Positions 20 through 6,707 of a stretch of DNA of 17,902 bases are shown here, piece after piece. The stretch comes from a virus (lineage: Duplodnaviria; Heunggongvirae; Uroviricota; Caudoviricetes). The notes beneath the pieces are model-generated. The model was not told the origin of the DNA and did no database searches. It worked only from the letters and a program-made list of their open reading frames with translations. The stretch lies in the IMG/VR virus record IMGVR_UViG_2778261135_000007; one strand, given 5' to 3'. The translations under genes were made by a program, and so were the position numbers. The first letter of the stretch is position 1. The number at the start of each line of letters is the position of its first letter.

Positions 20-1315
20 TTAATTTTTCATTGCTTCGTTATGGGGCATGGTTGGGGCAAACTCGCTTAACTGTGTATTTAACAAAGCTACCTGTGCATT
101 ATTGTTTTCAGACATCCATTTTCCGTAGACCTGAAATACCATTTGCGCATCTGCATGGCCCATCTGGTTTGCTATAAATGCCGGGTTAGCACCAGCTGTC
201 AGCGACCAGCAGGCATAAGTATGTCTCGACTGATATGATTTTCGATGGCGGAGTCCGGCACGTTTTATCGCTGCGTCCCACATCTGCCTTATTGAGTCAA
301 CGGTAAAATGGTCACCATAATTTTTTACTCTCGCTGACACTTCAGGTTGAAAAACAAAGGTGCATTTTTGTTTTTCTGTTCTGCCATACTCTCTGAGGTG
401 AACATCAATGATATGCTCTTTGCTCAGTCTCGTTAATGTCATCTGACTCCGGAGAGCGTCGATTGCTGGCTTAATAAGATGAATGACCCGATTGGTTCCC
501 GCCTGTGTTTTTGGTACCGTGAAACGGTCTTTTGCTAAATTTCTCCTGATCATCATTGTTCCATTTTTCAGATCTATGTCCTCCCATCCAAGTGCACACA
601 GCTCACCAGGGCGAACGCCAGTATAAACAGAAACACACCATAAATTTTTTGCTTGCTGATTTCTGCATGCATCGATAAGACGGATAAATTCCTCCCGCGA
701 AAGAGGATCCGGAATGGTTCTTGATTCCTTTAATGGCGAGATCCCCTTAAACGGATTATCTGCCAGGTAACCGTTATCAACACCAAACTGGAACACGGCG
801 TTAAGATTTGTCATGTAATTATTTACAGTTACAGCCGATCTCCCTGGTTGTGTAACAATATAGTTACTTTTGGGGATCTGGTATCCAGTCAGTAGCTCTT
901 TACGAACCTCCAGTAATTTTTCTTTATTAATCGATGAGGCAAGATTTTTTTCACCGATTATGCTCAGGATATTTTTGATGACGGCACGGTATGTGTTGAG
1001 TGATGTTTTGGCGACTTCAGTTTCTTTCAGTGCCAGAAATTTTTCAGCCAGTTCTTTTATGGTTAAATCTTGTCGGGCCTCACCAAATTTTTCCAGATTG
1101 CGTGAGGAGGGAAACTGTTTTGCATAGTCGAAAACACCAGTTTTTATTGCGTAACAAACAGAGGCGCGTAGTTCACCTGCAACGCGCCTGTTTTTTGCTG
1201 TGTCAGGAACCCCCAGATTTTCCCTGACTCTTACGCCTTTATAAACAAACCAGATACGTAATTTCCCTCCATGGTTTTCCACGCCTGTCGGATATTTCAT
1301 TTCAACTTCTCTCAT
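20..1315 (-). CDS. Phage integrase, tyrosine recombinase family
   Basis: 431-aa ORF at the window edge. C-terminal region has the tyrosine-recombinase signature (RHTYACW ... MGHADAQMVFQVYGKWM, comparable to the lambda Int LGHKSDTMASQY box). N-terminus resembles an arm-type DNA-binding domain. Sits next to an excisionase-like gene in the usual int-xis arrangement. True start may be the second ATG at 1300, which has a GAGAGAAG Shine-Dalgarno-like sequence. Confidence 0.85.
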   Translation of the reverse strand: MREVEMKYPTGVENHGGKLRIWFVYKGVRVRENLGVPDTAKNRRVAGELRASVCYAIKTGVFDYAKQFPSSRNLEKFGEARQDLTIKELAEKFLALKETEVAKTSLNTYRAVIKNILSIIGEKNLASSINKEKLLEVRKELLTGYQIPKSNYIVTQPGRSAVTVNNYMTNLNAVFQFGVDNGYLADNPFKGISPLKESRTIPDPLSREEFIRLIDACRNQQAKNLWCVSVYTGVRPGELCALGWEDIDLKNGTMMIRRNLAKDRFTVPKTQAGTNRVIHLIKPAIDALRSQMTLTRLSKEHIIDVHLREYGRTEKQKCTFVFQPEVSARVKNYGDHFTVDSIRQMWDAAIKRAGLRHRKSYQSRHTYACWSLTAGANPAFIANQMGHADAQMVFQVYGKWMSENNNAQVALLNTQLSEFAPTMPHNEAMKN

Positions 1316-1334
1316 TAGTTAGTGTGGCTTTTAG

Positions 1335-1586
1335 TCAAGTAAGATGACGTCTTGGTCTCGCTGATGCCTGGCGCTCAATCCAGCGATCAATTTCTTCCAG
1401 GTTGTAAAAGCATGGACTGTTATCCCATGGCATACCGTCATGAGCGACATGCTTATATTCCCTTCCTTCCATAAACGATTTTTCCCGGGCCTTTTTTAAC
1501 GTACCTTTTTTTATTCCTTTCAGCGCAATTAACTGCTCTTCGGATACCCATTTGCCGGGAGAGACAATCATGATTACTTCGCTCAT
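1335..1586 (-). CDS. Excisionase-like / DNA-binding protein (Xis-like)
   Basis: 83-aa ORF immediately upstream of int on the same strand, with a 19-bp gap. Small basic protein in the canonical xis position. Function inferred from position and size only. Confidence 0.6.
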   Translation of the reverse strand: MSEVIMIVSPGKWVSEEQLIALKGIKKGTLKKAREKSFMEGREYKHVAHDGMPWDNSPCFYNLEEIDRWIERQASARPRRHLT

Positions 1587-1658
1587 CGATTTCTTTATCT
1601 CTTACATCAGACGAGCGCCGGTTGCAGAATACCAGTCACAACCGGCGACAGTTGAACA

Positions 1659-4130
1659 TTAAGAATCAGCCTGACTCGGGATAAGTTTTTGCCAGATAAC
1701 TGAAACGTATTTTGCCTGGTAACGGGCGTCATCAAGTGCATTATGGCGCTCACCTTCGAATGGAATAGCCGTTCTGGCATCGAAGTCTATGGCTTTCCCC
1801 AGCTCAACGATTGTGCGTACATCGCGATCGTTGTAGTAACGCCACGGGCAGGGGATCCCCTGCCGTTCGTATGAACGGCGCAAAATCGTGTTGTCGAAGT
1901 TGGCTCCATTTCCCCAAACCTGAACAAAAAATTCACCGGAGTTTTCGTCGATAAATTCCCGCAATTGTAACAGTGCATCATCTAACGGGATTTCATCGGT
2001 CATAATGGCAGATTGCGCTTCGCGTGATTGCTTAAGCCACCATTTAATGGTGTCCCGATCAATGACTCCGCCAGCAGTTTCCAGATCGATAGTCTTACTA
2101 AATTCCGGTCCCATATCTCCGGTTTGCGGATCGAAAAATATTGCACCTATTGAGATGATCGGGGCATCAGGATTTTTTCCCATGGTTTCAAGGTCGATCA
2201 TTAGATGGTCACACGTCCTGCTGGTGGATGTGATTTCGTGATGACCGTTCACCTTAATTGGATGATCTGTCGTCTCGCCAGTTTCATTATCGCTATTGTG
2301 ATGCTGATTGCCGCCAGTGTTCTCCTTGTGTGGATGTTCAGCGCCTTCCATTTCCTCCGGATCATCTTCCTGAACTTCAACCTGATACTCTTCATCGAAT
2401 GTTTCTTGGTATGTTGCGTCGCCCATCACCGCGCCACAATCAGGGCAGTTGCCGCCGCCGGTCTGACCGCAGGCGGTGCAGACTTTTTCCACTTCCTGTT
2501 GCGCCACTGGTTCAGGCTGTTTCGTTTCTGGCTCGTTTTGTAACGCATTTGGACTGTTTTGTTCCGCTTTTTGGTAGTTCCGTTCCGATTCATGCTGGTT
2601 CTGGTTCACAGAATCGCGGGTCTGGATCCCCTTAACCCATTTCGGATCATTCGGGTCACTAATCCCTTCAACAAATTCACCACGTGATGCAGCAAGCAAC
2701 TTATCGGCGTCAGGCTGGCTGATATTGGCTGCCTGCATAATTTTGTTTACTTCGTCAGCGGTAACTTTTATCGGCTCTGGTTGTTCTGAATCTTCAGCGG
2801 TATCTACATTTTGCGGTAAGCCCGTGTATGTGCCATTTTTTCGGGCAAAATATTCTTCTTTTGTGATTTCAGTAGCGCCAGCAGCCAGTGCCTTATCCAG
2901 ACCAGAAAGTTTGTTTGCGCGACCGTATTTTTCTCCGTCCTTATCTGCGAAGAGGAAATAGAACGGCCCCTCACGCTCTACAGATGGTTCAGCTTCCGGC
3001 GCGGTTTCATTTTTTGGGATATCAGATACCTCAGTTTCCACTGCATCAGTTTGTGTTTCTGATGACTGGAGAACATCAACAGTGCCCAGGTCTGTTTCTT
3101 CATTCTCAAACACGCCCTTTGTCGTCAGGTATTCGCAGATATATTTGTTCAGTGCTACGGGATCTTTGTGAATGTCGATCGGACGCTCACGGACAAGGCC
3201 AAAAATAGTTTGGCGGTCGTAGCGAAGGGCATCAGGCTGTTTGCGCATTGATGCCGAGATACGCTTCCAGTCTTCGCGGTCGTTGTCGATAACTTCTTTT
3301 TTTGCCCAGCGATGGATGCTGCCGTCAATGTTTCCGGCATCCACATCACCAGGCCAGAGAGCGTAGGCCAGTTCGTCATCCAGTGTTTTCCATGTCTGCT
3401 TGTATTCGCGATGAATGGCAGCAATGACCGGGCTGATTTTTCCTGTTGAATTTTCAGTGTACTGTTGATTGGCTCTGGCGCGGGCGAGATCAACAACAGA
3501 CGTGTATTTTCCGGTTTCCTTGCGTTCACCTTCGCGACGTTTTTTCCAGATGCGCATCTCTGCCTGAATTTCGGGCCATTTAGCACCAGGAATACATTTA
3601 TGCTTAACCCACCCAATGGCGTGCAACTTAAGCTCCGGATACATGGCGTTAACTTCTGGCATTTTCATCAACGCTTCAACGATATGTCCGTCGAATGTTG
3701 CCATGTCTTCCTGCAACAATTCTTGTGCGCTAATAACCATATCAACGGTGATGTTTTCACATGTATCGAACTTAACCATGACAGCGTTCTGTACTTCAGG
3801 GGCCAGCTTGTCAAAAGTGACGTTCATCGGATCGGATTCAGTCTCAACCGGGACAAAAGAAGCAGACTCCTCATCCCAGCGGTTTTCCTGCATATATTCA
3901 GCATCCCATGAATCGAGGGCAGGGCGGGGTATGCCAGGTTTATCCTCGCAGACAATAAATTTATAAGCGCAGTCCTGAGCAGCCGGATAATGTTCCAGGA
4001 ATTGCCAGTGAAATTTTGCTCGAGCACGGCGTTCGTCGCCAGCTTCAATGGCTGTGGCTACAGCCACAGCGCCTTCTTCCCTTATTGCCAGTTCGTCAGG
4101 AATAGCGGCGCAAATAAAGACTTTACTCAT
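1659..4130 (-). CDS. Prophage exonuclease (exodeoxyribonuclease VIII-like) with C-terminal DEDDh (DnaQ-like) 3'-5' exonuclease domain
   Basis: 823-aa ORF. C-terminal roughly 180 aa carries the three DEDDh motifs directly visible in the translation: MIDLETMG (Exo I), WGNGANFDNTIL (Exo II), ERHNALDDARYQAKY (Exo III). The middle is an acidic low-complexity linker with a CxxC...CxxC element (CTACGQTGGGNCPDCG). GAGGT Shine-Dalgarno upstream of the ATG at 4130. Confidence 0.8.
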   Translation of the reverse strand: MSKVFICAAIPDELAIREEGAVAVATAIEAGDERRARAKFHWQFLEHYPAAQDCAYKFIVCEDKPGIPRPALDSWDAEYMQENRWDEESASFVPVETESDPMNVTFDKLAPEVQNAVMVKFDTCENITVDMVISAQELLQEDMATFDGHIVEALMKMPEVNAMYPELKLHAIGWVKHKCIPGAKWPEIQAEMRIWKKRREGERKETGKYTSVVDLARARANQQYTENSTGKISPVIAAIHREYKQTWKTLDDELAYALWPGDVDAGNIDGSIHRWAKKEVIDNDREDWKRISASMRKQPDALRYDRQTIFGLVRERPIDIHKDPVALNKYICEYLTTKGVFENEETDLGTVDVLQSSETQTDAVETEVSDIPKNETAPEAEPSVEREGPFYFLFADKDGEKYGRANKLSGLDKALAAGATEITKEEYFARKNGTYTGLPQNVDTAEDSEQPEPIKVTADEVNKIMQAANISQPDADKLLAASRGEFVEGISDPNDPKWVKGIQTRDSVNQNQHESERNYQKAEQNSPNALQNEPETKQPEPVAQQEVEKVCTACGQTGGGNCPDCGAVMGDATYQETFDEEYQVEVQEDDPEEMEGAEHPHKENTGGNQHHNSDNETGETTDHPIKVNGHHEITSTSRTCDHLMIDLETMGKNPDAPIISIGAIFFDPQTGDMGPEFSKTIDLETAGGVIDRDTIKWWLKQSREAQSAIMTDEIPLDDALLQLREFIDENSGEFFVQVWGNGANFDNTILRRSYERQGIPCPWRYYNDRDVRTIVELGKAIDFDARTAIPFEGERHNALDDARYQAKYVSVIWQKLIPSQADS

Positions 4131-4223
4131 TTTGTTTTAACCTCATGACAGATTTAAGGATGAACAAATCCCTGCCATTGCTGGCATATAAGAATGAAAC
4201 CGGATATTTATTACGGAACTGTT

Positions 4224-4415
4224 TTAAAGACCTGCCGGGATTTCGATATTATCCTGGTGAATAACTTTATCGACCGGGTAACAGTTACCGGGAATTTTCT
4301 GTTCGGTTGCTGCAGTCATACACTCCTGCATTGTCCTGTGAACACTGACTGCAATATCAACTGGCACTCCGGAAACAAGAAAAACTGTCAGAACAAGCGC
4401 AAATGCTGAATTCAT
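4224..4415 (-). CDS. ydfD: YdfD-like small membrane/lysis protein (63 aa)
   Basis: Internal start MNSAFALVLTVFLVSGVPVD... gives 63 aa with a hydrophobic N-terminal segment. Start abuts the dicB stop, as in the dicB operon. Sequence matches my recollection of Qin YdfD. Confidence 0.7.
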   Translation of the reverse strand: MNSAFALVLTVFLVSGVPVDIAVSVHRTMQECMTAATEQKIPGNCYPVDKVIHQDNIEIPAGL

Positions 4416-4600
4416 TGTGCACATCCTTTTGGCATCAGACGTAAACGAGCCAGCATTGAAACAATGCATATTTTATTTAATAGCTCCCGTTCTTGTTTTC
4501 TCTTGTTAATGGCATCTTCAGTAAATACAGGGTTACTGATAGTGACACCAATTTCAAAACAACCTTCAGACGTATTAACGTTTGGTAATAACGTTTTCAT
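4412..4600 (-). CDS. dicB: Cell division inhibitor DicB (62 aa)
   Basis: Translation from the internal ATG, MKTLLPNVNTSEGCFEIGVTISNPVFTEDAINKRKQERELLNKICIVSMLARLRLMPKGCAQ, matches the DicB sequence as I remember it. GAGGA Shine-Dalgarno upstream. The longer 97-aa track ORF is an upstream in-frame extension. Confidence 0.85.
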   Translation of the reverse strand: MKTLLPNVNTSEGCFEIGVTISNPVFTEDAINKRKQERELLNKICIVSMLARLRLMPKGCAQ

Positions 4601-4774
4601 TATCGCGTCCTCAACAATGAATTTTGTGATGCAGTGCCTGGTGCCTCCAGGTGACGTTAACCAGTTAACAATTAACGTCGGATACAGAGAATCCACCCAT
4701 AACACTGTTTTTGGTTTTAACTGTTCCGCGTGCGCTTAGCCGCATTCACCGCATCACAAAATTCACTTTAAAAA

Positions 4775-4827
4775 CGGCGGCAGAGCAGTCACGGAGTAAA
4801 ACTGATACCGCCAAACGTCACCAGAAA
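4775..4827 (-). ncRNA. dicF: DicF small regulatory RNA (53 nt; targets ftsZ mRNA)
   Basis: Reverse complement of 4775-4827 reads TTTCTGGTGACGTTTGGCGGTATCAGTTTTACTCCGTGACTGCTCTGCCGCCG, matching recalled DicF over essentially its full length. Followed on the minus strand by a T-run (TTTTT). Lies between the ydfC region and dicB, as in the Qin dicB operon. Confidence 0.85.
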
Positions 4828-4858
4828 ATTGATAACAGAGGGCGTTGCAGCGGTGTTG

Positions 4859-5050
4859 TCACTTAAGCGTATGGTCAACCTGACAACTCGGTGTCCTCAA
4901 CGGGGAAGGAATAACCCCGCCGTACTTACCGCCGCGCCATTTTGCGGGTTGCCACAACCGGAAGCGCACGGTCGAATTAAATTTAACGACACCGTACAGT
5001 GAGACGAACTTCGCCGTGCGCTTTCGTGTTGTGTGCCTGCTTTTAACCAC
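4859..5050 (-). CDS. Hypothetical small protein in the ydfC position (weak call; region may be structured RNA)
   Basis: 63-aa minus ORF between the ydfB-like ORF and dicF. A competing 61-aa ORF in another frame (4897-5082), GC-rich sequence and long inverted repeats (GCGCACGG at about 4964-4974 pairing with CCGTGCGC at about 5012-5021) make the coding assignment uncertain. Confidence 0.3.
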   Translation of the reverse strand: MVKSRHTTRKRTAKFVSLYGVVKFNSTVRFRLWQPAKWRGGKYGGVIPSPLRTPSCQVDHTLK

Positions 5051-5086
5051 GTCAGGCGAGGTGGTATCCTTAAAATCACCACAGTT

Positions 5087-5662
5087 TTAAGGATTCATTA
5101 AGCAATGTCGCAACCACCAATAAATCCGCTTAAGAACATGAAAATTGATTACTGGTATAAAGCGCTTACAGTTGTTGGCGCTGCGTTGTTTGTCTTTAAT
5201 GGAACGTCTTTTTTTGACAGATATCCCGTTGTTCCATTGGGTTTTTTGTCCTCCGGCATCTTTTTTATTGGTTTGGGGGAGTGGATTAATCACCCTCTCA
5301 AAGTGAGATTTATTGGTCCTGGAGTTTGGACTCGTGGATATAATCGTTCTTCGTGCGCACTCGGTATCATCTTCGACATACTTGGTTGTTTCCTGATTGT
5401 TACAGGAGTCGTCAAGTTCTTCTGATGTAAAACCGCAAATGGGGCACGTAACGGGAATTTTGAAAAGCGTTTCTCCGGGTTCCAGAACAAAATTTTCTGC
5501 GGTCTGATTTTGCTTCTCATATTTGTGCTCCGCGTCATTGTGAGAGCACATTCTTATTCTGAGTGCCTGTTTAAACTCACTGAAGCTGAGAGCTTCTTCG
5601 CCTTCGGCAAGGCCTTCGAAGTATTCTTCGTAAGCCTTTTCCATGATTGTGTCGAAATCCAT
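5087..5662 (-). CDS. YdfB-like protein, extended form (about 191 aa) with a CPICG zinc-ribbon-like element
   Basis: Start ATG overlaps the ydfA stop (TGATATG junction). N-terminus MDFDTIMEKAYEEYFEGLAEGEEALSFSEFKQAL.... The C-terminal half is K/N/Q-rich and is antisense to a hydrophobic plus-strand ORF, so the 3' portion may not be coding. Confidence 0.4.
   Translation of the reverse strand: MDFDTIMEKAYEEYFEGLAEGEEALSFSEFKQALRIRMCSHNDAEHKYEKQNQTAENFVLEPGETLFKIPVTCPICGFTSEELDDSCNNQETTKYVEDDTECARRTIISTSPNSRTNKSHFERVINPLPQTNKKDAGGQKTQWNNGISVKKRRSIKDKQRSANNCKRFIPVINFHVLKRIYWWLRHCLMNP
5105..5425 (+). CDS. Hypothetical membrane protein (about 3 predicted hydrophobic helices), antisense to the ydfB-like ORF
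   Basis: 106-aa ORF with three hydrophobic segments (YWYKALTVVGAALFVF, VVPLGFLSSGIFFIGLGEWI, ALGIIFDILGCFLIVTGVV). AAGGA Shine-Dalgarno about 11 nt upstream. Opposite to the operon direction, so it may be only the mirror image of the minus-strand ORF. Confidence 0.2.
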   Translation: MSQPPINPLKNMKIDYWYKALTVVGAALFVFNGTSFFDRYPVVPLGFLSSGIFFIGLGEWINHPLKVRFIGPGVWTRGYNRSSCALGIIFDILGCFLIVTGVVKFF

Positions 5663-5663
5663 A

Positions 5664-5819
5664 TCACTCACCTGAGTTTCTTTCCAGCCAGCGACGGGCA
5701 CCATTTTCGGTTTTAAACGTTTTGCTTTTGGTATACGTCATCGCGGTGAACGTACCGTCCTGGTTGGGGAACACGCCACATACCAGAGATTCGCTGTTGC
5801 CAAGATCGATAGTATCCAT
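5664..5819 (-). CDS. ydfA: YdfA-like small protein (51 aa)
   Basis: Internal ATG gives MDTIDLGNSESLVCGVFPNQDGTFTAMTYTKSKTFKTENGARRWLERNSGE, 51 aa. First gene downstream of dicA on the same strand, as in Qin. The 77-aa track ORF is an upstream extension. Confidence 0.65.
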   Translation of the reverse strand: MDTIDLGNSESLVCGVFPNQDGTFTAMTYTKSKTFKTENGARRWLERNSGE

Positions 5820-5985
5820 GCTGACCTCATTTCCCCTTAACGCCGGGGTAGCGGAACTGTTTGCTGAGAACACCGTGCGGTGTGTTGATGCAAACAAGAT
5901 TAGCCATGACTAACATATTGGTCAAGTGATTTTGTATGTTATAGTTAACATAATTAATATAGTAAAAGATAACTCATTGATGATG

Positions 5986-6393
5986 TTATCTTTTATTTGT
6001 CCGCTGACGGGCTTTTAGTAATTCTTCAAAGAGTTTATTGAAGTTTTTTACTCGAGCTCGCATTTCGGCGAGCTGGGTATCCTGTTCTGATTCTGGCAGT
6101 GCATTAAACAGCTCAAGGAGCTCTAGTTCTTTGGGAGATAAGGCAACTGGCTTCTCAACAGGTGGTGTTGGTTGCTTGTCTTCATCGCCAAATAGAATCC
6201 ATGTTGGTGAGCATTGCAATACTTTGCTGAGGGCAAAAAGGTTCTTCCCTGTAGGTTCACTATCATCCCGTTCCCATTGTGATACAGACACATGGGAGAT
6301 TTTCAGGGCTTTAGCAAGAGACCTTTGGGTGTGTTTGAGGTTTTTCCGACGATACCTAATGCGTTCGCCGATAGTTAAATTTTTTGTATCCAT
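5986..6393 (-). CDS. dicA: Repressor DicA (cI/C2-like HTH repressor of the dicB operon), 135 aa
   Basis: 135-aa translation (MDTKNLTIGERIRYRRKNLKHTQRSLAKALKISHVSVSQWER ... LLKARQRTNKR) matches recalled DicA nearly residue for residue. HTH_XRE-type helix-turn-helix near the N-terminus. Divergent from dicC. Confidence 0.9.
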   Translation of the reverse strand: MDTKNLTIGERIRYRRKNLKHTQRSLAKALKISHVSVSQWERDDSEPTGKNLFALSKVLQCSPTWILFGDEDKQPTPPVEKPVALSPKELELLELFNALPESEQDTQLAEMRARVKNFNKLFEELLKARQRTNKR

Positions 6394-6476
6394 AGTTAGC
6401 TAATGCTAAATCGTATTGACTATGTTTTTGTTAACATCTATTTTGTTAGTTATGACTAACAATCAAGGTGTTTTAA
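6394..6476. promoter_or_regulatory. dicA-dicC divergent promoter/operator region with three palindromic elements
   Basis: 83-bp intergenic region contains TTAGCTAA (6395-6402), TGTTAACA (6429-6436) and a 20-bp palindrome TTGTTAGTtatgACTAACAA (6443-6462). A TTGACT -35-like hexamer (6415-6420) with a TATTTT -10-like hexamer 17 bp downstream faces dicC. This is the analogue of the OR/PRM/PR region. Confidence 0.5.
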
Positions 6477-6707
6477 ATGCTTAAAACTGACGCTCTTTTG
6501 TATTTCGGTTCAAAAACAAAACTTGCACAAGCAGCTGGTATTCGTTTGGCTTCGCTTTATAGCTGGAAAGGGGATTTAGTTCCCGAAGGTCGCGCGATGC
6601 GTCTACAGGAGGCATCTGGCGGGGAGCTTCAGTATGACCCCAAAGTTTATGACGAATATCGTAAGACGAAGCGGGCGGGGCGGTTGAACAATGAAAATCA
6701 CTCCTGA
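6477..6707 (+). CDS. dicC: Cro-like regulator DicC (76 aa)
   Basis: 76-aa translation MLKTDALLYFGSKTKLAQAAGIRLASLYSWKGDLVPEGRAMRLQEASGGELQYDPKVYDEYRKTKRAGRLNNENHS matches recalled DicC. AAGGTG Shine-Dalgarno 6 nt upstream. Divergent from dicA. Confidence 0.85.
   Translation: MLKTDALLYFGSKTKLAQAAGIRLASLYSWKGDLVPEGRAMRLQEASGGELQYDPKVYDEYRKTKRAGRLNNENHS

What the first reader, a model, noticed from the sequence alone, without database searches (positions are those of the whole stretch)
4224..4600. Intact DicB-YdfD host-targeting module next to the recombination genes
dicB (division inhibitor acting through MinC) and ydfD (small membrane protein reported to cause lysis) are both full length and tightly juxtaposed, downstream of dicF. 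With DicA repressor and DicC present, the whole switch that controls host killing appears complete in this strain.
Basis: partly seen in the sequence, partly recalled or inferred. Interest (0 to 1): 0.4.

Follow-up and report, generated by a model that had tools for sequence, protein, structure and literature searches.

The report
Ordinary DicB–YdfD prophage gene pair
This stretch holds the well-known dicB (cell-division inhibitor) and ydfD (lysis protein) genes of a Qin-type lambdoid prophage, intact, nearly identical to E. coli K-12 and present in most E. coli genomes, so it is real but ordinary.

Summary
On the minus strand, window 4412-4600 is dicB and 4224-4415 is ydfD. They are joined by a 4-nt ATGA stop/start overlap and lie 174 nt downstream of the DicF sRNA (4775-4827). 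DicB is 62/62 identical to K-12. YdfD is 61/63 identical (V6A, E17V, both in the N-terminal hydrophobic domain), and this allele is common and identical in the isolated phage HannyBb. DicA, DicC, the dicBp promoter and the Rem antirepressor are all present.

The window is the int-to-lysis half of an mEp460/PhiR42_1/HannyBb-type temperate phage. It is the uninterrupted form of K-12's cryptic Qin. The 801-bp region around the pair occurs in 4667 of 5426 complete E. coli genomes and is routinely annotated as dicB/ydfD.

Two corrections. The neighbour is a DEDDh 3'-5' exonuclease protein plus xis/int, not RecE/RecT. Published K-12 work shows derepression gives DicF/DicB filamentation, while DicB masks YdfD lysis, so "host killing" is too simple.

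The finding is already known and of low interest.

A more unusual thing lies upstream. At 5087-5662(-) and 5105-5425(+), a conserved, mostly unannotated 106-aa membrane-protein gene lies fully antisense inside the extended ydfB ORF, and the antisense frame appears to be kept open by selection.

The parts
4412..4600 (-). dicB, 62-aa cell-division inhibitor
   Evidence: 62/62 aa identical to K-12 DicB, with one synonymous change at 4529. PF05358 E=1.9e-40 and NF049927 132.8 bits against cutoff 100. GAGGA lies 8 nt upstream of the ATG. A longer in-frame ORF reaches up to 4705.
4224..4415 (-). ydfD, 63-aa lysis protein (DUF1482)
   Evidence: 61/63 identical to K-12 YdfD (V6A from nt 4399, E17V from nt 4366). 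PF07358 88.7 bits against cutoff 25. Identical to YdfD of phage HannyBb. This allele is seen on at least 1000 contigs.
4412..4415 (-). ATGA overlap of the dicB stop and the ydfD start (probable translational coupling)
   Evidence: Read directly from the sequence. The same overlap is in K-12, HannyBb, mEp460, 640R1 and 606R7, and appears as GTGA in the divergent PPompW pair.
4775..4827 (-). DicF sRNA with its terminator hairpin
   Evidence: Rfam RF00039, 72.5 bits against gathering score 48. 52/53 identical to K-12. Only nt 53 differs (C to G), it lies outside the predicted stem, and the fold is unchanged (-16.6 against -15.9 kcal/mol).
4173..4186 (-). weak hairpin after ydfD, a candidate 3' end of the ydfA-to-ydfD transcript
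   Evidence: Terminator-like hit TGCCAGCAATGGCA followed by GGGATTTGTT. The number of such hits is not above shuffled controls. It fits the 1,608-nt ydfABC-dicFB-ydfD transcript reported in K-12 (PMC10448788). This is an inference.
5897..5925 (-). dicBp promoter: -35 TTGACC (5925-5920), 17-nt spacer, -10 TAATCT (5902-5897), overlapped by operator-like TGTTAG...CTAA repeats
   Evidence: Both hexamers are identical to K-12, with one spacer change (5919). There are six changes in all in the operator region 5919-5961.
5986..6393 (-). dicA, CI/C2-type repressor of dicBp
   Evidence: NF007257 235.6 bits against cutoff 101. E2D and G43D relative to K-12. The window allele is on at least 1000 contigs, the K-12 allele on 324.
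6477..6707 (+). dicC, Cro-type regulator
   Evidence: Identical to K-12 DicC. NF007282 159.5 bits against cutoff 130.
10867..11118 (+). rem, antirepressor that relieves DicA repression
   Evidence: 80/83 identical to K-12 Rem. Its function is taken from PMC10448788.
5664..5819 (-). ydfA (DUF1391), first gene of the dicBF operon
   Evidence: PF07151 E=8.8e-28. 49/51 identical to K-12.
5087..5662 (-). extended ydfB ORF (191 aa). The first 34 aa match K-12 YdfB, and the ORF then runs through a non-K-12 cassette.
   Evidence: PHROG 35040. A conserved IPxxCPxCGF block shows synonymous variation.
5105..5425 (+). 106-aa conserved small membrane-protein gene, antisense to and nested inside the extended ydfB ORF
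   Evidence: 60 homologues of about 100-110 aa, none with a Pfam domain. Motifs DYWYKA and GLGEWINHPL. Differences concentrate at third codon positions of the + frame.
1659..4130 (-). 823-aa exonuclease protein, the uninterrupted form of the K-12 ydfE pseudogene
   Evidence: PF16473 Rv2179c-like domain at residues 642-813, E=2.4e-67. Fails the RecE equivalog NF007259 (282 bits against cutoff 1269). K-12 homology stops at the IS2 insertion.
20..1586 (-). int (20-1315) and xis (1335-1586)
   Evidence: 99.4% identical to the K-12 intQ pseudogene over 1-1179. PF06806 excisionase E=1.6e-31.

Best explanation
Window 4224-4600 is the dicB-ydfD gene pair of the early-left (lambda pL-like, 'dicBF') operon of a Qin/mEp460-type lambdoid prophage. 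Here the prophage is in its uninterrupted form.

Shown by sequence: the operon order on the minus strand is dicA | dicBp | ydfA - ydfB(extended) - DicF - dicB - ydfD - exonuclease - xis - int.

Taken from K-12 literature:
- DicA represses dicBp. Repression is lifted by the Rem antirepressor, by stochastic switching in a DicA/DicC (CI/Cro-like) circuit, or by stress.
- DicB binds MinC and sends it to the septum, dissolving FtsZ rings. It also blocks ManYZ-dependent phage DNA entry.
- YdfD binds IspG (MEP pathway) and lyses dividing cells when made alone, but DicB co-expression prevents this lysis.

Inferred here:
- The conserved ATGA overlap couples YdfD translation to DicB translation, so YdfD is not made without its masking partner.
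- The same phage carries its own holin, lysozyme and Rz cassette. The pair therefore acts as an early host-takeover or exclusion module, analogous to lambda Kil, rather than as the phage's lysis device.
For: DicB is 62/62 and YdfD 61/63 identical to K-12, with no frameshift or truncation. The family models pass their curated cutoffs.

From DicF to the exonuclease start there are only 8 differences from K-12. The dicBp hexamers are unchanged. DicA, DicC and Rem are present.

The 801-bp region is in 4667 of 5426 complete E. coli genomes and is annotated dicB/ydfD. The pair with the same 4-nt overlap is in isolated phages HannyBb, Tritos, PhiR42_1, mEp460 and others. The window is 87-88% covered at 97-98.6% identity by the complete 45-49-kb phages PhiR42_1 and HannyBb.

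pN/pS is 0.11-0.22 for both genes against phage 640R1, which indicates purifying selection.

The window's YdfD allele is identical in HannyBb and is seen on at least 1000 contigs. E17V raises rather than breaks N-terminal hydrophobicity (19-residue Kyte-Doolittle mean 2.28 against 2.0).

The mechanism comes from PMC10448788, PMC6832061 and PMC8835842. An intact holin/lysozyme/Rz cassette lies at about 14925-16480.
Against: Nothing here measures expression or activity.

Both YdfD substitutions lie in residues 1-28, the domain reported to bind IspG. That study found YdfD very sensitive even to one-residue terminal deletions (PMC8835842), so this allele's potency is untested.

The segment between ydfB and dicF (5045-5561) differs from K-12 and contains a convergent gene, so transcription reaching dicF-dicB-ydfD may be regulated differently.

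The operator region has six substitutions and DicA has G43D relative to K-12.

Translational coupling is inferred from the overlap alone. The YdfD-IspG mechanism rests on a single study.
Confidence: 0.9

Rival explanations
1. The genes look intact, but the module is functionally silent or weakened in this strain. Either the V6A/E17V YdfD is inactive, or the non-K-12 cassette with its convergent gene stops dicBp transcripts before they reach dicF-dicB-ydfD.
For: Both substitutions lie in the IspG-binding N-terminal domain, and YdfD is reported to be very sensitive to small changes. The 517-bp cassette with an antisense gene lies between the promoter and the module.
Against: The same YdfD allele is in the isolated phage HannyBb and on at least 1000 contigs. 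The cassette plus module is in 806 complete genomes at 99% identity or more, and also in HannyBb. No minus-strand terminator-like site was found between 4600 and 5985. In a live phage, xis and int lie downstream of the module on the same strand, so early-left transcripts plausibly read through it.
Confidence: 0.06
2. The pair is kept mainly for what it gives the lysogen, not as a host-killing switch. Low-level DicB excludes phages that use ManYZ, and DicF/DicB adjust division and metabolism under stress.
For: DicB protects against lambda and other ManYZ-dependent phages after brief or leaky expression (PMC6832061). DicF accumulates in stationary phase, and dicBp switches on in subpopulations and under urea or heat (PMC10448788). 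The module is kept in 86% of complete E. coli genomes, including decayed prophages such as K-12 Qin.
Against: This is not exclusive of the main explanation. Deleting ydfD had minimal effect on phage resistance, so it does not explain why ydfD is conserved. In this window the module sits in what looks like a complete phage early region.
Confidence: 0.3
3. The minus-strand ORFs are chance or shadow ORFs, and the real coding is on the plus strand (ORFs 4194-4409 and 4464-4739).
For: Plus-strand ORFs of 71 and 91 aa do overlap the region.
Against: The minus-strand products match curated DicB and DUF1482 models full length and are identical or nearly identical to proteins tested experimentally in K-12. 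The substitution pattern across phages shows purifying selection in the minus frames.
Confidence: 0.01

Closest known systems
dicBF operon of cryptic prophage Qin, E. coli K-12 (dicA/dicC, ydfABC, dicF, dicB, ydfD, ydfE)
   Same: The gene order is the same. DicB and DicC are identical, YdfD is 61/63, DicF 52/53 and DicA 133/135. The dicBp hexamers and the ATGA overlap are the same, and int matches the K-12 intQ pseudogene at 99.4%.
   Different: The window is not decayed. The exonuclease (K-12 ydfE pseudogene), xis and int are uninterrupted, whereas K-12 has IS2 there. Replication genes are present and relBE-ydfV-flxA are absent. ydfC is replaced by a 517-bp cassette carrying an antisense 106-aa gene. 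YdfD has V6A and E17V.
Isolated temperate phages PhiR42_1, HannyBb, Tritos and mEp460
   Same: 71-88% of the window aligns at 95-98.6% identity. The dicB-ydfD pair has the same overlap. HannyBb has the identical YdfD allele and the same cassette.
   Different: The immunity regions differ in some of them: HannyBb has a different repressor. DicB has 1-9 substitutions.
Lambda Kil and Rac KilR (division inhibitors in early-left operons)
   Same: They occupy the same place in the genome, between the repressor/pL and exo-xis-int. From established knowledge, the outcome is also the same: FtsZ-ring inhibition early after induction. KilR sits in this position in loci L012 and L014.
   Different: There is no sequence relationship. 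DicB works through MinC, whereas Kil and KilR do not (established knowledge, not tested here).
DUF1482 (PF07358), the family that contains YdfD
   Same: YdfD matches the Pfam model over residues 4-61.
   Different: Only K-12 YdfD has a reported function (lysis, IspG binding). I did not examine other members.

Membership tests
DicB (PF05358 / NF049927) | Full-length match to the curated family models, above cutoff | tested here: met
   PF05358 covers 1-62/62, 136.8 bits against 27. NF049927 scores 132.8 against 100.
DicB (PF05358 / NF049927) | Sequence identity to the experimentally characterised K-12 protein | tested here: met
   62/62 aa identical.
DicB (PF05358 / NF049927) | MinC-dependent block of FtsZ-ring formation (filamentation) | not testable with these tools
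   Inferred from 100% identity with the tested protein (PMC10448788, PMC6832061).
YdfD / DUF1482 (PF07358) | Match to the family model above cutoff, and the same length as K-12 YdfD | tested here: met
   88.7 bits against 25, residues 4-61. 63 aa, 61/63 identical.
YdfD / DUF1482 (PF07358) | Intact N and C termini, reported to be required for lysis | tested here: met
   Residues 1-5 and 59-63 are unchanged. The substitutions are at positions 6 and 17 only. The requirement is from PMC8835842.
YdfD / DUF1482 (PF07358) | Lysis of dividing cells and IspG binding | not testable with these tools
   The V6A/E17V allele has never been assayed as far as the literature I read shows. It is common and is carried by the isolated phage HannyBb.
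DicF sRNA (RF00039) | Covariance-model match above the gathering score | tested here: met
   72.5 bits against 48, model positions 1-52/52. 52/53 identical to K-12, and the hairpin is unchanged.
DicA/DicC immunity switch | Divergent CI-type and Cro-type genes with operator-bearing intergenic regions, and dicBp downstream of dicA | tested here: met
   NF007257 scores 235.6 against 101 and NF007282 scores 159.5 against 130. The intergenic regions align to K-12 without gaps, with 2 and 7 substitutions, and the promoter hexamers are intact.
DicA/DicC immunity switch | Repression of dicBp by this DicA allele (E2D, G43D) on these operators | not testable with these tools
   This allele is commoner than K-12's (at least 1000 contigs against 324), which argues that it works.
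   NF007259 scores 282 bits against a cutoff of 1269 and matches only the non-catalytic middle part. The catalytic domain is Rv2179c-like DEDDh (PF16473). No annealase ORF lies between 1586 and 4224.

The most novel reading that the evidence does not exclude
In this prophage type the DicF-DicB-YdfD module may be wired differently from K-12. Transcripts from dicBp must cross a 517-bp cassette in which a conserved 106-aa membrane-protein gene (5105-5425, +) lies fully antisense inside the translated, extended ydfB ORF. Convergent transcription, or the need to keep translating through the overlap, could gate how much DicF, DicB and YdfD is made. The membrane protein would be made in the repressed lysogen and switched off on induction.
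Probability: 0.1. Interest if true: 0.4.

Novelty: already known. Interest (0 to 1): 0.07.

Why it matters
It matters little as a discovery. dicB, ydfD, dicF, dicA and dicC are textbook Qin genes. They are annotated automatically and present in about 86% of complete E. coli genomes.

The modest value is context. Almost all functional work was done on the decayed K-12 Qin, whereas here the same module (with identical DicB) sits in what looks like a complete temperate-phage early region. Strains or phages of this type (PhiR42_1, HannyBb) would let one ask what DicF, DicB and YdfD do during a real induction.

The upstream antisense gene pair noticed in passing is the part more likely to repay further work.

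Tried and rejected
1. The original YdfD paper (Masuda 2016; DOI and PMC5975272) is not held. Its results are cited second-hand through PMC8835842.

2. The promoter and terminator consensus scan of 4000-6600 gave no more hits than shuffled sequence: 3 against 4.1 promoters and 5 against 2.9 terminators. I found no support for an extra promoter in front of dicB. The hairpin after ydfD is only a weak candidate.

3. PADLOC found no defence-system model for DicB, YdfD or the 106-aa protein.

4. A dN/dS test for the cassette within E. coli was not possible, because 786 of 806 copies are 99% identical or more. I used divergent homologues from other prophages instead.

5. I first read the 205-aa minus-strand ORF as a pure shadow of the 106-aa gene, since the + frame scores 75.5 bits and the - frame 24.6 bits against mEp390. 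I revised this after finding specific avoidance of antisense stops and a conserved CPxCGF block.

6. I looked for co-variation of the DicA allele with the operator changes in other loci. Those loci carry different immunity regions, so there was no comparison to make.

7. A literature search linking ydfB to antisense overlapping genes found nothing specific.

8. I did not run structure prediction. DicB is identical to a characterised protein and YdfD is nearly so, and a model would not settle the effect of V6A/E17V.

Full report
WHAT IS THERE

The finding's coordinates, 4224-4600, span exactly two minus-strand ORFs. I fetched the K-12 MG1655 Qin region (NC_000913.3) and compared it directly.

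- dicB is window 4412-4600(-). It encodes a 62-aa protein identical at all 62 positions to K-12 DicB, with one synonymous nucleotide change.
- ydfD is window 4224-4415(-). It encodes a 63-aa protein identical to K-12 YdfD at 61 positions. The differences are V6A and E17V.
- Both genes have the K-12 length, with no frameshift or truncation.
- DicB matches Pfam PF05358 end to end (E=1.9e-40) and passes the NCBIfam DicB cutoff (132.8 against 100). YdfD matches DUF1482 (88.7 bits against 25).
- The dicB stop and the ydfD start overlap as ATGA at 4412-4415. Each ATG is preceded at 8 nt by a Shine-Dalgarno-like GAGGA or AAGGA.

SURROUNDINGS

An Rfam scan finds DicF at 4775-4826(-), at 72.5 bits against a gathering score of 48. 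This is 174 nt upstream of dicB on the same strand. It is 52/53 identical to K-12. The one difference is the last nucleotide, which is C, G or A in different phages and lies outside the predicted terminator stem.

From DicF to the start of the next gene there are only eight differences from K-12.

Further upstream on the minus strand lie:
- ydfA at 5664-5819;
- the dicBp promoter, with -35 TTGACC and -10 TAATCT both unchanged and one change in the spacer;
- dicA at 5986-6393, with E2D and G43D.

dicC is divergent at 6477-6707 and identical to K-12. Rem, the antirepressor shown to relieve DicA repression (PMC10448788), is at 10867-11118, 80/83 identical to K-12. So every named part of the switch is present.

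WHAT THE WINDOW IS

BLAST against K-12 shows the window is Qin without K-12's damage:
- window 1-1179 matches the intQ pseudogene;
- 3364-5044 matches ydfE-ydfD-dicB-dicF;
- 5562-6970 matches ydfB-ydfA-dicA-dicC-ydfX;
- 10481-11769 matches hokD-rem-ydfU.

K-12's IS2 has removed what the window has at 1180-3363. Against isolated phages, the window is covered as follows:

| Phage | Coverage | Identity |
|---|---|---|
| PhiR42_1 | 88% | 98.6% |
| HannyBb | 87% | 97.0% |
| Tritos | 73% | 98.0% |
| mEp460 | 71% | 95.2% |

The window also has replication genes, a Q-type antiterminator and a holin/lysozyme/Rz cassette. It is therefore the int-to-lysis half of a temperate phage type that exists as complete, isolated phage genomes.

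HOW COMMON

- The 801 bp around the pair match in 4667 of 5426 complete E. coli genomes, up to 9 copies per genome, and are annotated 'cell division inhibition protein DicB' and 'lysis protein YdfD'.
- The exact window sequence of the first 66 nt of ydfD is in 458 records.
- Both YdfD alleles, and the DicB sequence, are each seen on at least 1000 contigs, which is the counting cap.
- The window's DicA allele is seen on at least 1000 contigs and K-12's on 324.

ARE THE TWO YdfD SUBSTITUTIONS A PROBLEM?

They lie in residues 1-28. This is the hydrophobic N-terminal domain that a 2022 study reports as the part that pulls down IspG. The same study reports that even single-residue terminal deletions weaken lysis (PMC8835842). 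So activity of this allele is not proven.

Against inactivation:
- HannyBb carries the identical allele.
- A6 is the majority residue among the cluster members I read.
- E17V lengthens rather than interrupts the hydrophobic stretch.
- Across phages both genes show pN/pS of about 0.1-0.2.
- The 4-nt overlap is kept even in the divergent PPompW pair, as GTGA.

HOW IT MOST LIKELY WORKS

The steps below come from the K-12 literature (PMC10448788, PMC6832061, PMC8835842):
1. DicA represses dicBp.
2. Rem, stochastic DicA/DicC switching, urea or heat relieve repression.
3. Transcripts ydfABC-dicF (1,146 nt) and ydfABC-dicFB-ydfD (1,608 nt) are made.
4. RNase III and RNase E release DicF, which blocks ftsZ translation.
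5. DicB with MinC dismantles FtsZ rings and also blocks ManYZ-dependent phage DNA entry.
6. YdfD lyses cells when expressed alone, but DicB or SulA co-expression prevents this lysis.

My inferences are these. The conserved ATGA overlap ties YdfD synthesis to DicB translation, so the masking partner always comes first. Because this phage has its own lysis cassette, the pair is an early host-takeover or exclusion module in the position where lambda has kil and Rac has kilR, not the lysis device. 'Switch that controls host killing' is thus too simple: the published result of derepression is filamentation.

'Recombination genes' is loose. The neighbour at 1659-4130(-) is an 823-aa protein, the full-length form of K-12's ydfE pseudogene. 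Its catalytic domain is an Rv2179c-like DEDDh 3'-5' exonuclease (PF16473, E=2.4e-67). It scores 282 bits against the RecE equivalog cutoff of 1269, and only over RecE's non-catalytic middle part. There is no RecT-like gene, only xis and int.

A DIFFERENCE FROM K-12 THAT BEARS ON 'COMPLETE SWITCH'

Between ydfB and dicF, window 5045-5561 has no K-12 counterpart. K-12 has ydfC there. This cassette is in 806 of 5426 complete genomes, nearly all at 99% identity or more.

It holds a plus-strand 106-aa ORF (5105-5425) that is antisense to the operon. This is a real gene:
- 60 homologues of about 100-110 aa were found, in E. coli, Yersinia, Herminiimonas, Reinekea and metagenomes. None has a Pfam domain.
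- The invariant motifs are DYWYKA and GLGEWINHPL.
- Differences between copies pile up at third positions of the + frame, for example 11/7/35.
- Against mEp390 the + frame scores 75.5 bits, while the annotated opposite-strand gp39 scores 24.6 bits.

The minus-strand ydfB ORF nevertheless runs straight through it, giving a 191-aa product, in exact antisense codon register.

- All six enterobacterial prophage copies contain no TTA, CTA or TCA codons, the three that would create antisense stops. Other A-ending codons are used normally. The probability of this is about 0.0004-0.02 per sequence.
- Four non-phage homologues have 5-17 antisense stops.
- Just upstream of the overlap the minus ORF has a conserved IPxxCPxCGF block with synonymous third-position variation.

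This looks like a real antisense-overlapping gene pair, or at least selection to keep translating through. It lies between the promoter and DicF-DicB-YdfD. I found no minus-strand terminator-like site in it. Since xis and int lie downstream on the same strand in isolated phages of this type, read-through is likely, but it is untested.

VERDICT

The feature is already known and annotated, so interest is low (0.07). The most novel reading still open is that the upstream antisense pair gates expression of the module. I put its probability at about 0.1.

Noticed in passing
window 5087-5662 (-) and 5105-5425 (+): Candidate antisense-overlapping protein-coding pair.

A conserved 106-aa small membrane protein (about three hydrophobic segments; motifs DYWYKA and GLGEWINHPL; no Pfam, PHROG or PADLOC match; 60 homologues) lies fully inside the extended ydfB ORF, in exact antisense register. 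Substitutions mark the + frame as the main coding frame.

All 6 enterobacterial prophage copies lack TTA, CTA and TCA codons, so they have zero antisense stops. Four non-phage homologues have 5-17. The minus ORF also has a conserved IPxxCPxCGF block with synonymous variation.

In five of the six prophage copies the + gene lies just 3' of the prophage repressor gene, convergent with the pL-type operon (Qin/DicB, Rac/KilR and RdgC-type prophages). In mEp390 it lies between the cro-like and cII-like genes, antisense to them.

RefSeq/PGAP mostly leaves the + gene unannotated. HannyBb and mEp390 (gp39) annotate only the opposite strand.

   Followed up: yes
window 5045-5561: A 517-bp cassette replaces K-12 ydfC between ydfB and dicF. 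It is present in 806 of 5426 complete E. coli genomes, almost all at 99% identity or more, and in phage HannyBb. Other phages (640R1, 606R7, PPompW) keep the ydfC type..
   Followed up: partly
window 1659-4130 (-): An 823-aa protein that is the uninterrupted form of the K-12 ydfE pseudogene. Its N-terminal 257 aa have no known function. The middle resembles the non-catalytic part of RecE. The C terminus is an Rv2179c-like DEDDh 3'-5' exonuclease domain instead of the RecE nuclease. Public annotations call it 'exodeoxyribonuclease VIII', which the equivalog model does not support (282 bits against 1269)..
   Followed up: partly
window 5919-5961 and 5986-6393 (-): Relative to K-12, DicA has E2D and G43D, the latter just after the predicted recognition helix. 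The dicA-dicBp operator region has six substitutions, including two inside the operator-like repeat (TGTTAGCTATAGCATACA becomes TGTTAACTATAACATACA). The window's DicA allele is commoner in public data than K-12's (at least 1000 contigs against 324). Possible repressor-operator co-variation could not be tested, because the other loci fetched carry different immunity regions..
   Followed up: partly
window 10326-10650 (+): A complete hok/sok-type locus: an Rfam Sok match (115.3 bits) at 10326-10500 and a 70-aa mok/hokD-type ORF at 10438-10650. K-12 homology starts only at 10481. The K-12 relE-relB-ydfV-flxA-ydfW segment has no counterpart in the window, which has cII-like/YdaT, O-like replication and DUF977 genes instead..
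   Followed up: no
window 13795-14187 and 16697-17082 (+): Two cspA-type thermoregulator leaders with csp genes (13956-14171 and 16843-17055) flank the phage lysis cassette: holin 14925-15140, ydfR-like 15145-15456, lysozyme 15453-15986, and Rz 15983-16480 with an embedded Rz1-like ORF at 16158-16430..
   Followed up: no
window 4775 (last nucleotide of DicF): DicF nucleotide 53 is polymorphic. It is G here, in HannyBb and in strain 95-3322; C in K-12, mEp460, 640R1 and PPompW; and A in 606R7. It lies just 3' of the terminator stem and does not change the predicted fold..
   Followed up: yes
window 4412-4705 (-): The dicB frame is open for 35 more codons upstream (97-aa ORF with a GTG start). 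The HannyBb and mEp460 records annotate DicB with this long form. Cam et al. [quoted passage not shown].
   Followed up: no
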